From Eledone cirrhosa (Eukaryota): a stretch of 64,000 nt of DNA. Every line of letters starts with the position of its first letter. Position 1 is the stretch's first letter. The position numbers and the translations under genes were made by a program. Below, piece by piece: positions 14,728 through 64,000 of the stretch. Where the stretch lies: NCBI GenBank assembly GCA_964016885.1, contig OZ024740.1:236344001-236408000 (forward strand). Reading direction: 5' to 3'. Under the pieces are notes generated by a model, which did no database searches, was not told the origin of the DNA, and worked only from the letters and a program-made list of their open reading frames with translations.

Positions 14728-15045
14728 AGAAAATGTAGTATGCTCAGATGCAGAAAATAACTGTAAATACATTCAATTGGTATAAATAGCTGAGCAAATT
14801 GGTCAGAGGTCCCTTAGCACAATGGCTAGAGCACTCAGCTGATATCTGAGAGATATGAGGTTCAATTACTTGTAATGGCCACTGGCAAATTTTTTCCATC
14901 TACTCTTTACTTGATTTTCTAAGCTATTTATAGCAACTGATTGTATTTACAGTTATTTTCTGCATCTAAGCATACTACATTTTCTATGAACCTCATAATC
15001 TCTCATCACTTTGAAAGTTCAAACTTTGCATACAATGTTTGTTTA
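14728..15045 (+). mobile_element. Inverted-repeat element (about 70-bp arms) enclosing a tRNA-like sequence, with one-sided tail, between TA tracts
   Basis: 14728-14800 matches the reverse complement of 14913-14985. Confidence 0.75.
14808..14881 (+). pseudogene. tRNA-like sequence, anticodon loop CT-GAT-AT
   Basis: TAGCACAATGG A-box, CTCAG/CTGAG anticodon stem, GGTTCAATT T-loop. Acceptor stem has 2 mismatches. Confidence 0.6.
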
Positions 15046-16885: not shown

Positions 16886-17360
16886 TTAGTCGAAATGTCG
16901 ACCAGGTGCATAATTTGTACTTACCCGATAAACTTGTACGTATTGCGTGGGCCATCGAACTGTTCTTCCAGATTTGGTGTGTCGGGGTTGTGCAGAATTT
17001 GTCGTGTTTGTGTCGGGCAAAGTTGTTGGTGAGTCTGCTGGAGAAACGGTGGGTACTGGTGGCAAATCCTGTTCTATGAATGCTTTTTTTAAACGGTCAA
17101 TGGAGACGATATTTCGTCTCCCGTTCAAGTCGAGGACGAAATACTTAGGGCGTTTCTGTATCACCTCATAGGGCCCGGAATACGGTGGACGAAGTTGCGA
17201 TGGAATACTGTCATTTCTAACGAAAACATGTGTCCATGTATCGATGTCTTTTGGTATGGTGGAGGTACCAAAACATGCTGTCGACACTTGCAGCTTAATT
17301 CACCTGCACCGCAACACGAGAATGCTAATTGAGCTGGATTCAAACAGTTTCGCATCTCGT
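16886..17360 (-). pseudogene. Gypsy integrase C-terminal (GPY/F) fragment
   Basis: HVFVRND...LRPPYSGPYEVIQKRPKYFVLDLNGRRNIVSIDRLKKAF. Confidence 0.88.
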
Positions 17361-38838: not shown

Positions 38839-39320
38839 CATATATATATTTATAACATTAATGAAATCTAGATAAGATGGTCTGATTTATGTTATAAGGC
38901 ATTAAAAATGCTGACACTAATGTAAGGGTAACAGATGGAGATTTAGATAGTAGAGAATTAGTTGAGTGGGGATTGACAGTTGCATTGAGCTGGTTAAGTG
39001 ACCAAGTGGTAGATCCTCAGTTTACAGCAATTCATAATTTCCAAACAATAGAATCAATGATTCATTCAGTAATAGATTCTGAGACAAGAACTAGAATATG
39101 ATCAGTAAGTTAGCTAAGCCATATAAATCTGAAAGCAATCTTATTTATAACATTAATAAAATCTAGACAAAATGGTTTGACTTATGTATGTTATAAATCT
39201 TACAAATGTTTTATTTATTGTCTCATATAGTTATTGCTTACTGCTCTATCTTTGCTGGCAATATGTTAGTGACACTGTATGCTTGTGTATGTATATATAT
39301 ATATATATATATATATTGTG

Positions 39321-39357
<37 letters not shown>

Positions 39358-39361
<4 letters not shown>

Positions 39362-40186
39362 GATATGCAGAAAAGGAACTGGCATAAATTCTATAAAATG
39401 CACACAATGCAGGTCCTGGGTACACAAGAGATGTAGCGGGATAGCAGGCAAACTAACAGGTAGGGAGAAATATGTATGCAGTAGATGTACAGGGAAATTA
39501 GACAGTAGAAGTCGCACTGATAGACACATTTTTCAAATGCGAGAGGGCGCTATAGAAGTGGTGGATAGCTTCCGGTACCTAGGAGATCAGATTAGCATGG
39601 GAGGAGGGTGTTCCGAGGCCATAGTATCTAGGGTAAGGACGGGTTGGAAGAAGTTTAGGGAGCTGCTTCCTCTGTTGACGAAGAAGGGTTTCTCCCTGCG
39701 TACGAAAGGCCGGTTGTATGATGCCTGTGTGAGGAGCGCGATGCTGCATGGTAGTGGGACATGGGCAGCAACCGCAGAGGATATGCGACGGCTGGAGAGA
39801 AATGAGGCAAGCATGCTCCGTTAGATGTGCAATGTAAATGTGCGTGAACGACCCAGCATAAATGTGTTGAGAGAGAAACTGTGTCTGAGAGGGATAGAAT
39901 GTAGTGTACGGGAGAGGAGACTGAGGTGGTATGGACATGTGATGCGCATGGAGGATGACCGATGGGTGAAGAAGTGCCAGGAAATGCCAGTTGAAGGAAG
40001 ACGTGGTAGAGGTAGACCACGAAAAACATGGGCGGAGGTGGTGAGAACAGACCTCAGATCATTGAAGCTCACGGTGGAGATGACGAGGGACCGTGACGAG
40101 TGGAGAGATGCTGTGCTGAATAAGACCCGTCCCACCCTTGCAAGCAGGGAAAAGCGGACGTAAAATGATGATGATGATGATGATGA
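39358..40186 (+). mobile_element. Young RTE family A 3' fragment inserted in (TA)n
   Basis: Near-open frame CRKGTGINSIKCTQCRSWVHKRC...YLGDQI...RRLRWYGHV with one stop. (GAT)n tail. Confidence 0.95.
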
Positions 40187-40379
40187 TATATATATATATA
40201 TATATATATAAAGAATTAATATCTAGTAACATATATATACATACAGATGCATATCAATGCTAGCAAATATGTTGGTTTTGTCTTAGTAACTTTGTGGTTC
40301 AATGCATGGGGTTGCAGAACAATAATATGAGAGACGTAAAATAAGAAAATTATAAAATTAACTTACTTACTAAAATATC

Positions 40380-40461
40380 ACTTCCAACTAATTAGTTTCT
40401 GGAATGGAATAAATATATTTTCCGAAGAAGATACAGAGAAGCATTCCGTCGTCAGGGAGGT
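40380..40461 (-). ncRNA. Type-I hammerhead ribozyme, copy 1
   Basis: Reverse complement: ACCTCC-CTGACGA-C-GGAATG..35 nt..CATTCC-A-GAAAC-TAATTA-GTT-GGAAGT. Confidence 0.72.
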
Positions 40462-40897
40462 CTATTCTCATCTAAGTATCCAGGCAAAGCGTGGACACTG
40501 GAAACTTATTAAAAAATAATTCAGTGGATAGGAAATAGCAAAGCGTGGACTGAATTCCTAGCCATTGAGAAAATCACTGCCTCTGCGTCGGTGGCAAATT
40601 CAAAAAAAATCAATCGCGTGACATCGAGGTCAATCAGTGGAAAGTGGTTTGCTAATAAGACAGCGGCCTGCTACCATAGCAGCAGTCATGGCCAATATTG
40701 CTCGACAAATAATTTGGAGATAATTATAAAGAATTAATATCTAGTAACATATATATACATACAGATGCATATCAATGCTAGCAAATATGTAGGTTTTGTC
40801 TTAGTAACTTTGTGGTTCAATGCATGGGGTTGCAGAACAATAATATGAGAGACGTAAAATAAGAAAATTATAAAATTAACTTACTTACTAAAATATC

Positions 40898-40979
40898 ACT
40901 TCCAACTAATTAGTTTCTGGAATGGAATAAATATATTTTCCGAAGAAGATACAGAGAAGCATTCCGTCGTCAGGGAGGT
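40898..40979 (-). ncRNA. Type-I hammerhead ribozyme, copy 2
   Basis: Identical to 40380-40461. Confidence 0.72.
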
Positions 40980-41106
40980 CTATTCTCATCTAAGTATCCA
41001 GGCAAAGCATGGACACTGGAAACTATATTTATTCCATTCCAGAAACTAATTAGTTGGAAGTGATATTTTAGTAAGTAAGTTAATTTTATAATTTTCTTAT
41101 TTTACG

Positions 41107-41147
<41 letters not shown>

Positions 41148-41150
<3 letters not shown>

Positions 41151-41730
41151 TCATCATCATCATCATGATCATCATCGTTTAACGTCCATGTTCCACGCTT
41201 GCATGGGTTTGGACGGGAGTTTTCCCACTTGAGGCAAGAGTGGTTGTCTTGCTCGCATAGGACTGTCTGGCGGGTTTTCTACAGCTGGATGCCCTTCCTA
41301 ACACCAACCACATTTACAGTGTGGGACTGGGAGGTTTTTACCGTGTTGCCTACACGGCCACATTACAGCGTGGACTGTGTGTGTTTTTTGTCGTGACACC
41401 TACACGATCTCATTTGTTTCGGCCTGGATGTTGTGGCACCAACATAACTTTACATTGAAAGGGACGGTGTGGATGGGGTGGGGGTGGTGGGACGGGGGTG
41501 TATTTTGTTAGAGATGCCTACTGACTGTAGTAGGTTTTACTTTGTATTCAGGTAAGGCGGGTCTTCTCTATTACTGAGTGCCGCCAAAGATCTCGGTCCA
41601 GTGACATTGTCTTGGAGAGGTGTAAGTGTGTGAGGTCGGAATTTATCAGGTCGTCCCAGGTTTTTCTGGGTCTGCCTACTCCATGGCTACCGTCTATCTT
41701 TATTGCCCTGCACTTTTTTATACAGCTGTC
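41148..41730 (-). mobile_element. RTE family B 3' fragment
   Basis: (CAT)n tail and 3'UTR homologous to 49050-49554. Confidence 0.85.
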
Positions 41731-41828
41731 GTTATAAATCTTACAAATGTTTTATTTATTGTCTCATATAGTTATTGCTTACTGCTCTATCTTTGCTGGC
41801 AATATGTTAGTGACACTGTATGCTTGTG

Positions 41829-41867
<39 letters not shown>

Positions 41868-46239: not shown

Positions 46240-49200
46240 CTGTTCTTCTAGCCCTGAATTCTCCTACCCTTACGTATGGATGAGCTGAGAATAAATGGAG
46301 CAACCCCGAATTAATAAATGAAAATGAATAAGAATCCGCGAGCTACCGAGCACCCATGTGAAGCTTCAATTCAGAGACAAGAAGCATACACACACCCCTG
46401 CAAAAATCGACCGTTTCCCACGAATGTTGACAAATGCCCAAAACTCCGAGTTGGTACCATCAATGTAAGCACAATAAAAGGAAGAGCAGGAGAAATCATA
46501 GAGATGCTAGAGCGAAAGGAAATAGATGGAGAGGAGAGTCTGCTAGAGTCCTTGTAGGAAAAAGTCAGTGCTACAAATTTTTCTGGGTGGGAAATGACGA
46601 TGGCATGGGTCGTGTAGGTATCCTACTAGCTGACAAGTAGGTAGATAAGGTAATCTCAGTGAACAGGGTGAATGCAAGAATCATTAAACTCAGACTAGTA
46701 CTGAATAAAACAATTACCACAATAATATCAGCGTACGCACCCCAACTGTGGTTGCCAGACGAACTTAAGGATAGGTTTTACGAGTCCCTAATGCACACTA
46801 CTGCTCTAACAAACGACAATGACTTCCTAATCATTGCAGGAGATTTTAACGAACACGTAGGTAAACACTGTGACAGCTTCTATAGAGTCCATGGAGGCCA
46901 TGGGGTTGGCACAAGAAATGAAGAAGGCTTTAGGCTTCTAGAATTCTGCAACGCCAATGACATGTCAATATGTAACACAAACTCCAAAAAACCCAACAAC
47001 CACCTGATCACCTATAGATCAGGGGAGCATTCTAGTCAGATAGATTTTATCCTCATCAGAGGATGTGACAGATGGACGGTCGTAAACACAAAAGCCTTCC
47101 CTAGTGAGGAATGTACCGCCCAACATAGCTTAGCTGTCAGCAACCTCACAGTCAGAACTAGACGAACCTGGAAACAGAAGCCAACCTGGAGAAGAAAGAT
47201 CTAGAAGCTGAAAGACCCCTCAGCCAGTAACAGATTTAAAGATATTTTACTCAACACCTAAAGAAGAACAAATAGAGACATTCAATGTAGAAGAGCACTG
47301 GAAGTTCCTAAAAAAATAACTTACTAAAGGCGACGGATGAGATCTGTGGCTGGAGTATGACCACAGGGCAGAGGAGAGTGACTTGGTGGTGGAACAATAA
47401 GGTAGATGAAGCAGTTAAGGCTAAGAGACAGGCATGGAAAGAATGGAAGAACGGAGGAAGCAGGGTACATTACTTAGAGACCAGGAGGGAAGCTAGGCGA
47501 CAAGTATACTTAGCTAGGAGGGAAGCAGAGGATAGAAAATTCAAGCATGTTTTGCAACGTGAAGACCAGAAACAGGAGGTGTTCAAGATTGTGAGGCAGT
47601 GTGTCAGAGAGAATTGTGATGTCATTGTAGAGAAGTGTATCTGGAATGATAAAGGTGAGCTTGCCCTCACAAGTGCTGAGAAGAAAGATGCGTGGAAGAG
47701 CCAGATTACTAAATGAGGAGAATGCATGGGAAGAAGAGACCCTACCCCAAGTAGACCCTATAGAGGGGCCAGCAGTACAAGTCAGCAGCAGCGTAGTAAG
47801 TAAGGCAATCAAAGATATGAAGACAGGGAAGGCAACTGGTCTATCGAGTATAGCTGCTGAGATGCTGAAGGCATCTGGGTCGGTAGGTCACACCATAACC
47901 ACACGCATTGTTAACCAGGTAATACTAGAAGGTGTCATACCAAAGGATTGGTGCAGTAGCATCATTGTCAACTGCTACAAAAGTAAAGGTGATGTACTAG
48001 ATAGAGGAAACTATAATCTAGTGGGCACTTAGAACTATAATCTATAATCTGGTGGGCTCTTAGAAAACTAGGAGTAGATGAATGGCTTGTGAAAGCTGTA
48101 CAAGCCATGTATAGGGGAGCAGTCAGCAAAGTTAGGATTAGCAATGAGTATAGCGAGGAATTTAGCATACAGGTCGGTGTCCACCAGGGCTCTGTTCTTA
48201 GCTCTCTCCTGTTCATCATAGTCCTGCAGGCAATAACGGAGGAGTTTAAGACCGGATGCCCATGGGAACTCCTGTATGCAGATGACCTTGCACTTATAGC
48301 TGAATCTATGGTGGAACTAGAGAAGAAATTCTAAACTTGGAAGCAGGGACTAGAAAGAAAGGGTCTCAAAGTCAACCTGACAAAGACTAAGGTCCTTGTA
48401 AGTAGGTGAGAAAACAGAACCCAGATCCTCTCAGGGAAATGGCCTTGCTCAGTATGTATGAAAGGTGTAGGTAGGAACTCCATTCTCTGCCCCAAATGCA
48501 AACAATGGGTACACAAGAGATGTAGCGGGATCTCAGGAAGCTTAATTAAGAATGTAGGCTTCACATGTAGCAGCTGTGCTGGGACAGCAAGCAGCAAACG
48601 ATCACAGGAAACAAGTACCACCAATCTCTGGGAGGGCTCTGTAGAAACAGGAGACAGCTTCTGCTACCTAGGTGACCGAATTAGCAGCGGAGGTGGGTGT
48701 TCGGAAACTACAATAACTAGGGTAAGAATAGGATGGAAGAAGTTCAGGGAGCTACTGCCACTGCTAGCTGCAAAAGGCTTTTCCCTCAAAATGAAAGGCA
48801 GACTGTATGATGCATGTATATGAACAGCAATGTTACATGGTAGTGAGACCTGGGCACTGAAGGTGGAAGACTTACATAGATTAGAAAGAAACGAAGCCTG
48901 CATGCTCCGATGGATGTGCAATAGTAATATACGCGAACGACAAAGCATAAATGAATTGAGAGAGAGACTGAGCATAAGAGGAATCAAATGCTGTGTGCAG
49001 GAGAGGCGGTTGCATTGGTATGGACATGTGATGCGTATGAAGGATGACAGCTGCATAAAAAGGTGCAGGGCACTAGAAGTTGATGGAAACCGCGGAGTGG
49101 GGAGACCAAGAAGACCTGGGATGAAGTGATAAAAGCCGACCTTACCCAATTACACCTCTCAAAGGCGATGATACGCGACCGTGACCTCTGGCGTCACGCA

Positions 49201-49554
49201 GGTAATACAGAAGACCCGACCCCCCCACGGGTACAAGCCGAAGCTGAAGCATATAGACAATATGCCCCCACCCCTTCCTACTGCAAAGTGGTTGTGGATG
49301 TGCCACGGCAAAAAAGCACCCAGCCCACTCTGTAAAGTGGACGTGTAGGCGCCATGGAAAAAAAGCACCCAGCACTCACTGTAAATGAGGTTGGTGTTAG
49401 GAAGGGCATCCAGCTGTAGAAATCAAGCCAGAATCAGTTCCTGTATGAGCAAGACAAGGTCAGCCGACCAGACACTGCCCACAACAGGACAACCCGTCTA
49501 ACCCATGCTAGCGTGGAAGAACGGACGTAAAACGGTGATGATGATGATGATGAT
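46240..49554 (+). mobile_element. Near full-length decayed RTE LINE (family B): APE, RT, PHD-like finger, 3'UTR, (GAT)n
   Basis: LRVGTINV, ISAYAPQ, IAGDFN, SQIDFIL (APE); GVHQGSVLS, YADDL (RT). Multiple stops, and a deletion of RT motifs near 48020. The 5' boundary is approximate. Confidence 0.95.
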
Positions 49555-60107: not shown

Positions 60108-61226
60108 ATATATATATATACACACACATACATAGTAATAATAATAAATGTGAAGACTAAAATCATCATCTGCATCATCGTTTAACATCCATTTTCTATT
60201 GCTAGCATGGGTTAGATGGGTTGTCTCGTTTGAGGTAAGTCGAGTCAGGTGACCATGTCTTGCTCATACAAAACTATTTCTGGCTTGGTTTCTACAGCTG
60301 GATGCCCTTCCTAATACCAACAACATTATATATATTAATATATAAACATACATGACGTACTATTATGATTGATAATATTGTTATGCAACAAAATTAGATA
60401 TAATTTAACATATTTAGATGTGAATTGATGGTAATAGTGATAGAACTGATGGTGGCATTGATAGTAACTGCAATATGAAGCCACTATAGCACACCACCAC
60501 ACTACTACTACATACCCACTACATTACCACCACCACTGCTTCACCATTATCACAACACACGACTAGAACATGCTCACACTACCATTACATTGCCGCTATA
60601 CTACAAATCAAAGAGGGAGCTGCTATGGGGGTTGCTCAACCTGCTAGAAATAGAAGTGAATTCCTTAACAAATCCCACTCCCTCATCTTTAAAAAGGTCA
60701 CATTAGATAACATTGTACTGGGTTCTCTGTACATAAATGAGGAAACAACAGAAGGGATAGTCATGGCTGGAATGGCTTTCAGATTATGTCTGCTAGATAA
60801 AGGTTGACCAGGCACTAAGCAACAACAATCACATCACTACCATTATTATACCATGGTGAATTGGCAGTATCGGTAGAGAGTCAGACGCCATGCTTTGCAG
60901 CATAGAGTTACGTCCCTTTATGGTCTGAGTTCAAATCCCACCGAGGTTAACTTTGCCTTTAATCTTTACGGGGTCGATAAAATAAAGTACCACTGGGATA
61001 ATTACTGGCCTTGTAGAAACAATTATTAGGACAGTGGATTGGCAGAATCGTTAGTGCGTTGGACACCATGCTTTGTAGCATAGAGTTATGGCCCTTTACA
61101 TTCTGAGCTCAAATCCTGCCAGAGTTATCTTTACCTTTCATCCTTACAGGGTCGATAAAATAAAGTACCAGTAATGTACTGGTTAATTGCTGGCCTTGTG
61201 CCGAAAGTAGAAACAATTATTATACA

Positions 61227-64000
61227 ACACTATCACTACAATACTACCATTACTATACCATACTACCACTATACCACACTATCACTACAATACTACCATT
61301 ACTATACCATACTACCACTATACCACACTATCACTACAATACTACCATTACTATACCATACTACCACTATACCACACTATCACTACAATACTACCATTAC
61401 TATACCATACTACCACTATACCACACTATCACTACAATACTACCATTACTATACCATACTACCCCTATACCACACTATCACTACAATACTACCATTACTA
61501 TACCATACTACCCCTATACCACACTATCACTACAATACTACCATTACTATACCATACTACCGCTATACTACCACATCACTACAATACTACCATTACTATA
61601 CCATACTACCACTATACCACACTATCACTACAATACTACCATTACTATACCATACTACCACTATACCACACTATCACTACAATACTACCATTACTATACC
61701 ATACTACCACTATACCACACTATCACTACAATACTACCATTACTATACCATACTACCCCTATACCACACTATCACTACAATACTACCATTACTATACCAT
61801 ACTACCCCTATACCACACTATCACTACAATACTACCATTACTATACCATACTACCACTATACTACCACATCACTACAATACTACCATTACTATACCATAC
61901 TACCACTATACCACACTATCACTACAATACTACCATTACTATACCATACTACCACTATACCACACTATCACTACAATACTACCATTACTATACCATACTA
62001 CCCCTATACCACACTATCACTACAATACTACCATTACTATACCATACTACCCCTATACCACACTATCACTACAATACTACCATTACTATACCATACTACT
62101 ACTATACCACACTATCACTACAATACTATCATTACTATACCATACTACCACTATACCACACCACATCACAACAATACTACCTTACTATACCATACTACTA
62201 CTATACTACCACACCACTAACTACAATACTACCATTACTATACTATACTACCACTATACTACCACATCACTACAATACTACCATTACTATACCATACTAC
62301 TACTATACTACCACACCACTACAATACTACCATCCCTATACCATACTACCACTATACTACCACATCACTACAATACTACCATTACTATACCATACTACTA
62401 CTATACTACCACATCACTACAATACTACCATTACTATACCATACTACTACTATACTACCACATCACTACAATACTACCATTACTATACCATACTACTACT
62501 ATACTACCACACCACTACAATACTACCATCCCTATACCATACTACCACTATACTACCACATCACTACAATACTACCATTACTATACCATACTACTACTAT
62601 ACTACCACATCACTACAATACTACCATTACTATACCATACTACTACTATACTACCACATCACTACAATACTACCATTACTATACCATACTACTACTATAC
62701 TACCACATCACTACAATACTATCATTACTATACCATACTACTACTATACCACCACACCACTACAATACTACCATTACTATACCATACTACCACTATACCA
62801 CACTATCACTACAATACTACCATTACTATACCATACTACCACTATACTACCACATCACAACAATACTACCATTACTATACCATACTACTACTATACCACA
62901 CTATCACTACAATACTACCATTACTATACCATACTACCACTATACCACACTATCACTACAATACTACCATTACTATACTATACTACCACTATACCACACT
63001 ATCACTACAATACTACCATTACTATACCATACTACCCCTATACCACACTATCACTACAATACTACCATTACTATACCATACTACTACTATACCACACTAT
63101 CACTACAATACTACCATTACTATACTATACTACCACACCACACCACTACAATACTACCATTACTATACCATACTACCACTATACTACCACACCACTACAC
63201 TATTACCATTACCATACCATACTACTACTATACCACCACATCACTATACTACCATTACTATACCATACTACTACTATACTACCACACCACTACAATACTA
63301 CCATTACTATACCATACTACTACTATACTACCACACCACTACAATACTATCATTACTATACCATACTACTACTATACTACCACACCACATCACTACAATA
63401 CTACCATTACTATACCATACTACTACTATACTACCACACCACTACAATACTATCATTACTATACCATACTACTACTATACTACCACACCACTACAATACT
63501 ACCATTACTATACCATACTACCACTATACCACACTATCACTACAATACTACCATTACTATACCATACTACTACTATACTACCACACCACTACAATACTAC
63601 CATCCCTATACCATACTACTACTATACCACCACATCACTACAATACTACCATTACTATACCATACTACTACTATACTACCACATCACTACAATACTACCA
63701 TTACTATACCATACTACTACTATACTACCACATCACTACAATACTATCATTACTATACCATACTACCACTATACCACCACATCACAACAATACTACAATT
63801 ACTATACCATACTACTACTATACTACCACACCACTACAATACTACCATTACTATACCATACTACTACTATACCACACTATCACTACAATACTACCATTAC
63901 TATACCATACTACTACTATACCACCACATCACAACAATACTACCATTACTATACCATACTACCACTATACCACACTATCACTACAATACTATCATTACTA
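61227..64000. repeat. 49-bp satellite array (about 56 units, runs off the window), nearly G-free on +
   Basis: Unit CACACTATCACTACAATACTACCATTACTATACCATACTACCACTATAC. Period 49 (61234 to 61283). Confidence 0.97.

What the first reader, a model, noticed from the sequence alone, without database searches (positions are those of the whole stretch)
40209..41116. 518-bp tandem with two identical hammerheads: candidate retrozyme or circular RNA monomer
Seen: a roughly 298-bp near-identical direct repeat with 518-bp period, a hammerhead (CUGACGA...GAAAC-UAAUUA-GUU) in each copy on the minus strand, no ORF, a 93-bp inverted copy at the 5' end, and (TA)n flanks. The unique middle links the tail motif back to the repeat start. 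Inference: two cleavages would release a 518-nt monomer that could circularise. The more-than-unit-length insert suggests reverse transcription around a circle or concatemer. The palindromic AACUAAUUAGUU would permit a dimeric hammerhead between the two copies.
Basis: partly seen in the sequence, partly recalled or inferred. Interest (0 to 1): 0.85.

Follow-up and report, generated by a model that had tools for sequence, protein, structure and literature searches.

The report
Octopus hammerhead retrozyme with Penelope footprint
This is a young copy of a very common, protein-free repeat, likely in an octopus genome, that carries two predicted self-cutting hammerhead RNA motifs and was likely pasted in by a Penelope-type retrotransposon; the kind is already known in other animals, and a circular RNA from it is possible but untested.

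Summary
In detail: 1.58 head-to-tail copies of a 518-bp unit, a type I hammerhead motif in each 300-bp repeat (minus strand), no ORF, a 93-bp inverted copy and (TA)n flanks. It is neither a local duplication nor an artefact. Public runs hold thousands of variant contigs, the same head-to-tail junction, and the same 3' end joined to (TA)n. The layout (partial tandem, inverted 5'-truncated copy, 3' tail, (TA)n target) is the published footprint of Penelope-like elements (PLEs). Best reading: a non-autonomous PLE, or animal non-LTR retrozyme, probably octopod. The circle and dimer ideas were already published (Cervera 2014, 2020; Li 2026). Against release of a monomer from this locus: both hammerheads carry a minority stem I mismatch that collapses the predicted fold, and the inverted arm would pair with a hammerhead in read-through RNA. 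No RNA run was listed, so cleavage and circles are untested. The most novel lead is a family variant, in two runs, whose 80-nt deletion starts exactly at the predicted cleavage bond. The autonomous partner was not found. Verdict: new member of a known kind, interest 0.42.

The parts
40207..41024 (-). Main partial tandem, 1.58 copies of a 518-bp non-coding unit (sense = minus strand)
40725..41024 (-). Upstream 300-bp repeat (pseudo-LTR-like, 5'-truncated unit)
40207..40506 (-). Downstream 300-bp repeat, 298 of 300 identical
40507..40724 (-). Single-copy middle of the unit, 218 nt, no ORF; present across the family
40891..40986 (-). Upstream type I hammerhead motif; predicted cleavage after 40904 (GUU)
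40373..40468 (-). Downstream type I hammerhead motif: stem I 40468-40456 with 40385-40373 (C.A mismatch at 40459/40382), core 40455-40449, extra C 40448, stem II 40447-40442 with 40406-40401, 35-nt loop II, extra A 40400, GAAA, palindromic stem III 40397-40386; predicted cleavage after 40386
40386..40903 (-). Predicted 518-nt monomer between the two cleavage sites (35.7% GC; circular fold -111.9 kcal/mol, 64% paired, z -2.6 against 60 shuffles); existence as RNA untested
41024..41116 (+). Inverted, 5'-truncated 93-nt copy; its outer end equals the family's common 3' end (unit position 40325); joined to the main copy at an imperfect GGAAA-T microhomology
40207..40324 (-). [quoted passage not shown]
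   Evidence: tail concept from PMC8557442 and PMC11167929
40186..40210 (.). (TA)n target, left
41113..41148 (.). (TA)n target, right
39360..40185 (+). Context: 5'-truncated LINE (PHD finger, (ATG)n tail); best named protein relatives are from Octopus bimaculoides
41147..41730 (-). Context: second 5'-truncated LINE-like copy with (ATG)n tail, tail to tail with the first
39190..39316 (+). Context: 127-bp exact direct repeat (partner 41731-41857) bracketing the nest; likely a long target-site duplication

Best explanation
It is a recent insertion of a high-copy, non-coding 518-bp repeat with a predicted type I hammerhead near its 3' end, most likely a non-autonomous Penelope-like element (animal non-LTR retrozyme) copied in trans by a PLE reverse transcriptase and GIY-YIG endonuclease. 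Shown: anatomy, absence of ORF, family abundance, head-to-tail continuity, and a shared 3' end joined to (TA)n. Inferred mechanism: (1) multimeric or partial-tandem family copies are transcribed on the minus strand; (2) intact family members self-cleave as dimers through the palindromic stem III, and some monomers may be ligated into circles; (3) the PLE enzyme nicks both strands of a (TA)n tract; (4) one nick primes cDNA at the tail end (TTTATA overlap with the target) and runs 818 nt, passing the unit junction once, by going round a circle, reading a tandem RNA or jumping template; (5) the opposite nick primes a second cDNA at the main 3' start site (ATAT overlap), which stops after 93 nt; (6) the two cDNAs join at a GGAAA-T microhomology, giving the inverted copy. 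This particular copy is probably a poor ribozyme source.
For:: 2064 contigs of run X1 laid on one unit (494 at 99+, 517 at 95-99, 808 at 90-95, 245 under 90% alike); 71 in X4 and 3 in X7 (other organisms); 6248 reads in X17. Head-to-tail join 40729->40213 at depth 2377. In X1, 17 contigs have loose ends at 40325 continuing into (TA)n, the same place where the inverted copy ends; 3 more at 40275. X1 depth peaks at the 3' end (6.4e5-7.8e5 at 40320-40355) and falls to 1.6e4-2.8e4 over 40428-40481, as 5' truncation predicts. Of the 40 best-supported variable places shown (113 not shown), 12 lie in 40373-40480 and none hits the 34 core, stem II or stem III positions (P=0.008); they fall in loop II (5), stem I (4), the free N7 (1) and outside (2). 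The family-majority base at 40459 (77% of depth in X1, 100% in X4, 285 of 402 and 318 of 400 reads in X17) closes the stem I mismatch. Published PLE layout: partial tandem, inverted 5'-truncated copy, tail, microsatellite targets (PMC8557442). Two RT start sites and extension of both strands in vitro (PMC11167929). PLE hammerheads with an extra base after A9, palindromic helix III and long helix II (PMC4209133). Extra bases on both sides of stem II and U at the cleavage site occur in listed PLE hammerheads, and Hydra-clade PLEs target (TA)n with the hammerhead about 100 nt from the 3' end (supplement). Retrozymes as non-autonomous PLEs (bioRxiv 10.64898/2026.07.22.740005).
Against: No autonomous partner was found: no GIY-YIG hit, and only three RVT_1 hits that I read as LINE pieces, among 150 of 159 window frames; 0 hits for 9 short unit motifs in the Craig et al. 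supplement (line breaks could hide matches); no likeness by eye to Naiad_Ovul or the Hydra-1_Obim hammerhead. The tail here (118 nt) is longer than the 30-40 bp reported. This locus's own inversion junction is not among the joints listed. Summed contig depth is not a copy number, and divergence in loop II could lower depth without truncation. RAD-seq depth (X17) shows a much weaker 3' skew. The hammerhead fold is not the minimum-energy fold even with the majority allele (1.3 kcal/mol above). In Li et al., 8 of 9 tested dimers did not cleave. Both flanks are LINE tails, so LINE-driven mobilisation is not excluded.
Confidence: 0.82

Rival explanations
1. One reading: this locus itself yields a 518-nt self-cleaved monomer that circularises, and the insert was made by reverse transcription round such a circle.
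For: Two sites 518 nt apart and palindromic stem III. The two repeats are 298/300 identical and share 6 of the 7 listed places where the window differs from the X1 majority, so they had one very recent template. Circular monomer fold z -2.6. Mussel, coral and axolotl retrozymes make circles (PMC7229834).
Against: Stem I mismatch in both copies (P 0.007 against 0.585). The inverted arm sequesters a hammerhead in read-through RNA. No Pol III A/B box on the minus strand and T8/T6 runs in the unit. Identical repeats also follow from a tandem source transcript or a template jump. Hammerhead cleavage was not needed for PLE insertion in vitro.
Confidence: 0.2
2. It is the pseudo-LTR end and deleted remnant of an autonomous PLE; the 518-bp unit is an internal-deletion derivative whose hammerhead is a passenger.
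For: Same insertion anatomy. Hammerhead 61 nt from the main 3' end, like Hydra-clade PLEs. PLEs are abundant in octopus genomes (PMC8967140). A faint hand-picked likeness (11 of 14 nt) to the 3' end of Hydra-1_Obim. This overlaps with the best explanation and differs only in origin.
Against: The whole unit, middle included, is covered in X1, X4 and X17, with similar depth on both sides of the junction (5.3e4 and 5.9e4 in X1). No listed loose end points into a long ORF (most loose ends not shown). No coding remnant in six frames.
Confidence: 0.3
3. A SINE-like or satellite repeat moved by the neighbouring LINE machinery or by local DNA recombination, with the hammerhead decayed or incidental.
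For: It sits between two LINE tails. 5' inversions by twin priming are known for LINEs (recalled). Rfam finds no hammerhead.
Against: No (ATG)n tail on the element itself. The inverted piece duplicates sequence already in the tandem, unlike LINE twin priming (recalled). Variation avoids the hammerhead core. Ends join (TA)n at fixed internal sites.
Confidence: 0.1
4. Local duplication or assembly artefact.
For: PLE tandem/inverted structures are known to trouble assemblies. This locus's inversion joint was not listed in the four runs.
Against: The same head-to-tail junction and the same 3' end occur in other samples. The repeats differ at 2 places and the inversion has a microhomology junction.
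Confidence: 0.03

Closest known systems
Animal non-LTR retrozymes (Cervera and de la Pena 2020, PMC7229834; Li, Clavereau and Pollet 2026, bioRxiv 10.64898/2026.07.22.740005)
   Same: Non-coding tandem unit, type I hammerhead per repeat, weak palindromic helix III, GC under 50%, high copy number, proposed PLE mobilisation.
   Different: Unit 518 bp (170-400 nt in the 2020 invertebrate set, but inside the 51-972 bp range of the 2026 set); only 1.58 units; 35-nt loop II; full PLE insertion anatomy at one locus; host probably an octopod, which the parts of those papers that I read do not cover.
EN+ Penelope-like elements, especially (TA)n-targeting Hydra clade, also Neptune and Naiad (Craig et al. 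2021, PMC8557442)
   Same: Partial tandem forming pseudo-LTRs, inverted 5'-truncated copy, tail at one end, (TA)n target, hammerhead close to the 3' end with extra bases at the base of stem II and U at the cleavage site.
   Different: No RT or GIY-YIG ORF; tail 118 nt rather than 30-40; no sequence match found to Hydra-1_Obim or Naiad_Ovul.
Non-autonomous Chlamys elements such as MRC1 (PMC8557442, passage)
   Same: Non-autonomous PLE with pseudo-LTRs and head-to-tail insertions.
   Different: Algal; most Chlamys lack canonical hammerheads; their autonomous partners are known.
Newt satellite 2 / axolotl HHR_Amex repeats (PMC7229834)
   Same: Weak helix III with palindromic loop, cleavage as dimers; Amex2 also has a mismatch at the base of stem II.
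   Different: 330-350 bp units in long arrays, with conserved loop 1-loop 2 contacts that were not tested here.
Plant LTR retrozymes
   Same: Two hammerheads in direct repeats bracket a monomer that could circularise.
   Different: Those have type III hammerheads, PBS/PPT and 4-bp TSDs; this has type I and PLE-type ends.

Membership tests
Animal non-LTR retrozyme | Type I hammerhead motif in each repeat | tested here: met
   Core, stems I-III and cleavage triplet in both repeats; stem I has one mismatch in this copy
Animal non-LTR retrozyme | Head-to-tail tandem with at least two hammerheads | tested here: met
   1.58 units, two motifs; junction recurs in X1 at depth 2377. It is not two full units.
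Animal non-LTR retrozyme | No protein-coding capacity; GC under 50% | tested here: met
   Longest Met-ORF 27 aa; 35.7% GC
Animal non-LTR retrozyme | Multi-copy family | tested here: met
   2064 contigs in X1, 71 in X4, 3 in X7, 6248 reads in X17
Animal non-LTR retrozyme | Typical unit size (descriptive) | tested here: inconclusive
   518 bp: above 170-400 nt, within 51-972 bp
Animal non-LTR retrozyme | Self-cleavage of the transcript | not testable with these tools
   Only folding predictions and a genomic joint at the scissile bond
Animal non-LTR retrozyme | Expressed as linear and circular monomer RNA | not testable with these tools
   No RNA holder listed
Non-autonomous Penelope-like element | Partial tandem forming pseudo-LTRs | tested here: met
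Non-autonomous Penelope-like element | Inverted 5'-truncated copy at the 5' end | tested here: met
   41024-41116; its outer end is the family 3' end
Non-autonomous Penelope-like element | Tail extension at one end, from two RT start sites | tested here: met
   Ends at 40325 and 40207 at this locus; 40325 (17 contigs) and 40275 (3) in X1; longer than the 30-40 bp reported
Non-autonomous Penelope-like element | (TA)n insertion bias (Hydra, Naiad; microsatellite bias in Neptune) | tested here: met
   Both flanks here; loose ends in X1 run into (TA)n
Non-autonomous Penelope-like element | 3' end homologous to an autonomous PLE of the same host | tested here: inconclusive
   No genome held; 0 of 9 motifs in the Craig supplement; only a faint 11 of 14 nt likeness by eye
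Autonomous Penelope-like element | RT plus GIY-YIG ORF | tested here: not met
Plant LTR retrozyme | Type III hammerhead | tested here: not met
   Stem I is the open stem: type I
Plant LTR retrozyme | PBS, PPT and 4-bp TSD | not tested
   TSD cannot be read inside (TA)n; PBS and PPT were not searched

The most novel reading that the evidence does not exclude
The family preserves genomic fossils of its own ribozyme at work. A variant joins the first base after the predicted scissile bond to a point 80 nt upstream with no microhomology, in two samples from two studies, and an inversion joint lies 2 nt from the bond. If these come from reverse transcription of self-cleaved and re-joined RNA, this octopod retrozyme shows that hammerhead-cut, circularised monomers are real templates for the Penelope enzyme. 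With thousands of young copies it would make the open question of what PLE hammerheads do, and how pseudo-LTR tandems arise, testable by counting junctions in one genome. It would also point to a long-loop hammerhead class that Rfam does not detect.
Probability: 0.25. Interest if true: 0.68.

Novelty: new member of a known kind. Interest (0 to 1): 0.42.

Why it matters
The class is known, so the main value is as a test system. Papers read here state that hammerhead function in PLEs is unclear and that reads ending at the cleavage site were not found for an Anolis PLE. The link between retrozymes and PLEs rested on co-occurrence and pLTR phylogeny in vertebrates. This locus adds anatomical evidence in an invertebrate: a non-coding retrozyme with the full PLE insertion footprint. 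It also flags an abundant, probably octopod hammerhead family that Rfam missed at E<=10, and a possible abundant circular RNA in cephalopods.

Tried and rejected
No whole genome is held, so the genome-wide survey could not be run. Rfam: no hammerhead at gathering level in the window or at E<=10 in 40100-41250; the six weak hits were rejected as chance. blastn of the insert against the window found no further copy, only self-matches and short low-complexity hits. An exact 21-nt motif gave 0 hits in metagenome, viral and genome collections. A relaxed gapped pattern gave 37 metagenome and 1 viral locus; 0 of 38 matched the unit by blastn (E<=0.01) and 0 of 38 had a 4-bp stem I, so all were rejected. 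No RNA holder listed; this says nothing on expression. Earlier scan notes: nothing. Pfam on 150 of 159 stop-to-stop frames (9 repetitive ones left out): no GIY-YIG. Pol III boxes: none on the sense strand; the plus-strand matches have the wrong order or spacing and were not pursued. RAD-seq pile-ups of read ends (40390, 40518 and others) were rejected as library effects. Naiad_Ovul ('HHR_half_core') was considered as partner, but its 3' UTR shows no likeness by eye. Literature searches for a cephalopod retrozyme listed none; the giant squid paper reports 235 hammerhead_1 Rfam hits without analysis. The library is partial. The supplement of PMC7229834, one file of PMC4209133 and the bioRxiv supplements could not be read, and Repbase/Dfam are not on hand, so a prior description is not excluded. 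A source for >100-bp TSDs in this LINE clade was sought; only a general statement on TSD length was seen.

Full report
Observation. The insert is as described. Two 300-nt direct repeats (40207-40506, 40725-41024) lie 518 bp apart and differ at 2 places. An exact 93-nt inverted copy (41024-41116 of 40843-40935) closes the other end, and (TA)n tracts flank both sides. On the minus strand each repeat has CUGACGA, a 49-nt spacer with a 6-bp stem II, GAAAC-UAAUUA-GUU and a stem I closing round the cleavage site, which is a type I hammerhead topology. A gapped pattern hit 3 times in the window against 0.13 expected; two hits are these motifs and the third lies in a LINE-like frame. There is no ORF in any frame, including round the circularised unit. 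Rfam did not recognise the motif, probably because of the 35-nt loop II and the extra bases beside stem II (inference).

Host and context. The window is AT-rich, full of microsatellites and broken LINE copies. The left flank's best named protein relatives are from Octopus bimaculoides (58-71% identity over 84% and 52% of the query), with Hydractinia hits at 46-54%, so the host is probably an octopod; this is an inference. The insert sits in the (TA)n between two LINE-like copies lying tail to tail, and a 127-bp exact duplication (39190-39316, 41731-41857) brackets the nest. If that is the target-site duplication of the right-hand LINE, everything inside it is younger than a duplication with 0 differences in 127 nt. 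That agrees with 2 differences in 300 nt between the repeats.

Family. No genome is held. A run search listed 19 runs, 15 holding part of the unit, 3 holding over half of its words, none on record as RNA. I laid 4 of them on one unit at 80% likeness. X1 gave 2064 contigs, X4 71, X7 3, and X17 6248 reads. Summed depth in X1 ran from 1.6e4 to 7.8e5 per bin, while 7 of its 8 listed long pieces had depth 9-19. The tool warns that this is not a copy number; I read it only as thousands of copies or more. The head-to-tail join stands at depth 2377, so the tandem is a family trait. Seventeen contigs leave the unit at 40325 and run into (TA)n, exactly where the inverted copy ends, and three leave at 40275. 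Depth is highest next to 40325 and drops 25- to 50-fold towards loop II, as expected for 3'-anchored, 5'-truncated copies; divergence in loop II could add to the drop, and X17 shows a weaker skew. Only some loose ends were shown (276 not), and this locus's own inversion joint was not listed.

Constraint on the hammerhead. Of 40 variable places shown (113 not shown), 12 lie in 40373-40480: five in loop II, four in stem I, one at the free N7, two outside, and none in the 34 core, stem II and stem III positions (hypergeometric P=0.008). The list holds only the best-supported places, so this is indicative. The family-majority base at 40459 closes the C.A mismatch that both window copies carry. With the window allele the hammerhead fold lies 3.1 kcal/mol above the minimum and stem I pairs with P=0.007; with the majority allele the gap is 1.3 and P=0.585. 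Not every common allele helps: those at 40377, 40383 and 40461 widen the gap when applied singly. The palindromic stem III gives a -10.8 kcal/mol duplex against +1.5 as a hairpin, and in the 817-nt RNA without the inverted arm the cross-copy pairing has P 0.63-0.69, though stems I and II remain rare. With the arm included, it pairs with the upstream hammerhead at P=0.65 and the cross-copy stem vanishes. So the family probably has a working dimeric ribozyme, but this copy is a poor source of monomer. These are equilibrium predictions, not assays.

What it is. Craig et al. (PMC8557442; passages, sections 11 and 15, supplement parts 1, 2, 24, 52) describe PLE insertions as partial tandems with an inverted 5'-truncated copy at the 5' end, a tail at one end and (TA)n bias in Naiad and Hydra clades. 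Their hammerhead table includes extra bases on both sides of stem II (PLE-X1_cBra has the same C and A), U at the cleavage site and near-palindromic stem III, mostly about 100 nt from the 3' end. Frangieh et al. (PMC11167929; first two of four parts) show that a PLE enzyme cuts and extends both strands at AT-rich DNA and starts at two internal RNA sites that bound the tail, and that hammerhead cleavage is not needed in vitro. Cervera and de la Pena 2014 (PMC4209133; first two of four parts) report the extra base after A9, palindromic helix III, dimer action and the circle-template idea. Their 2020 paper (PMC7229834; parts 2-4 of 6) shows circles from coral, mussel and axolotl retrozymes and names PLEs as likely movers. 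Li et al. 2026 (bioRxiv; parts 1-3 of 5) argue that animal retrozymes are non-autonomous PLEs; 1 of their 9 dimers cleaved. The locus fits each structural item except an ORF, so I file it as a new non-autonomous PLE or non-LTR retrozyme family. The partner is unknown: octopus has Hydra-1_Obim and Naiad families, but 0 of 9 unit motifs occur in that supplement and the window has no PLE ORF. Hydra-like or Neptune-like is my guess, from the target and hammerhead position.

Mechanism. Shown: anatomy, microhomologies at all three junctions (TTTATA and ATAT with the target, GGAAA-T at the inversion), family ends. Inferred: both strands of a (TA)n tract were nicked and primed, one at the tail start and one at the main start; the long cDNA crossed the unit junction once; the two were joined at the microhomology. 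The two repeats share 6 of the 7 listed places where the window departs from the X1 majority, among them G at 40271, which holds about 14 of 261166 depth in X1 and 0 of 86.9 in X4. They therefore had one very recent template. A circle would do this, but so would a template jump or a transcript of a young tandem source, and X1 may be another individual or species. The data do not choose among these.

Most novel lead. Of five joints listed, one (40385->40466, 80 nt skipped, no letters fitting both sides) breaks exactly at the predicted scissile bond. It stands in one X1 contig (depth 124.6) and 6 X17 reads from 4 starts, which are different samples and studies; the tool notes that letters between are not known, but 2 further X17 reads show the direct join. 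A second (40387->40654, opposite strands, 3 reads, 2 starts, 21-nt side) lies 2 nt away and is weak. For 8 breakpoints over 518 places, chance gives 1.5% for one exact hit and 0.25% for two within 2 nt; this was computed after seeing the joints, breakpoints need not be uniform near a folded domain, and the deletion may be one event later amplified. It suggests that cleaved RNA has served as template, and that hammerhead-less copies can still spread.

Novelty. Searches for a cephalopod retrozyme listed no description; the giant squid paper mentions 235 Rfam hammerhead_1 hits (passage), and PMC8967140 notes Penelope abundance in octopus (passages). The library is partial and some supplements could not be read, so prior description, for instance in a repeat library, is not excluded.

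Noticed in passing
window 39190-39316 and 41731-41857: 127-bp exact direct repeat bracketing LINE(+), the hammerhead insert and LINE(-); likely an unusually long target-site duplication that dates the nest as young, or a composite inserted as one unit.
   Followed up: partly
family variant, unit 40386-40465 (runs X1, X17): 80-nt deletion starting exactly at the predicted cleavage bond and removing the hammerhead; apparently amplified.
   Followed up: partly
unit position 40417-40418: The inverted copy's truncation point recurs as a loose end in X4 (2 contigs) and a joint in X1 (40418->40621): a possible RT stop site in loop II.
   Followed up: no
window 40484-40496 and 40538-40550: 13-nt direct repeat inside the unit, either side of the repeat boundary; could be a promoter or protein-binding motif.
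   Followed up: no
window 14808-14881 +: tRNA-like match (Rfam 31.4 bits) with imperfect stems; probably a tRNA-derived SINE head.
   Followed up: no
window 61221-64000: 49-bp tandem array, 56.7 copies, 93% matches, almost G-free on the plus strand; runs to the window end.
   Followed up: no
window 46641-49218 +: Near full-length broken LINE with AP endonuclease, RT and a PHD finger after the RT; many truncated relatives in the window.
   Followed up: no
window 16886-17299 -: Frame that resembles the C-terminal part of a Gypsy-type integrase (recalled resemblance; no Pfam hit).
   Followed up: no
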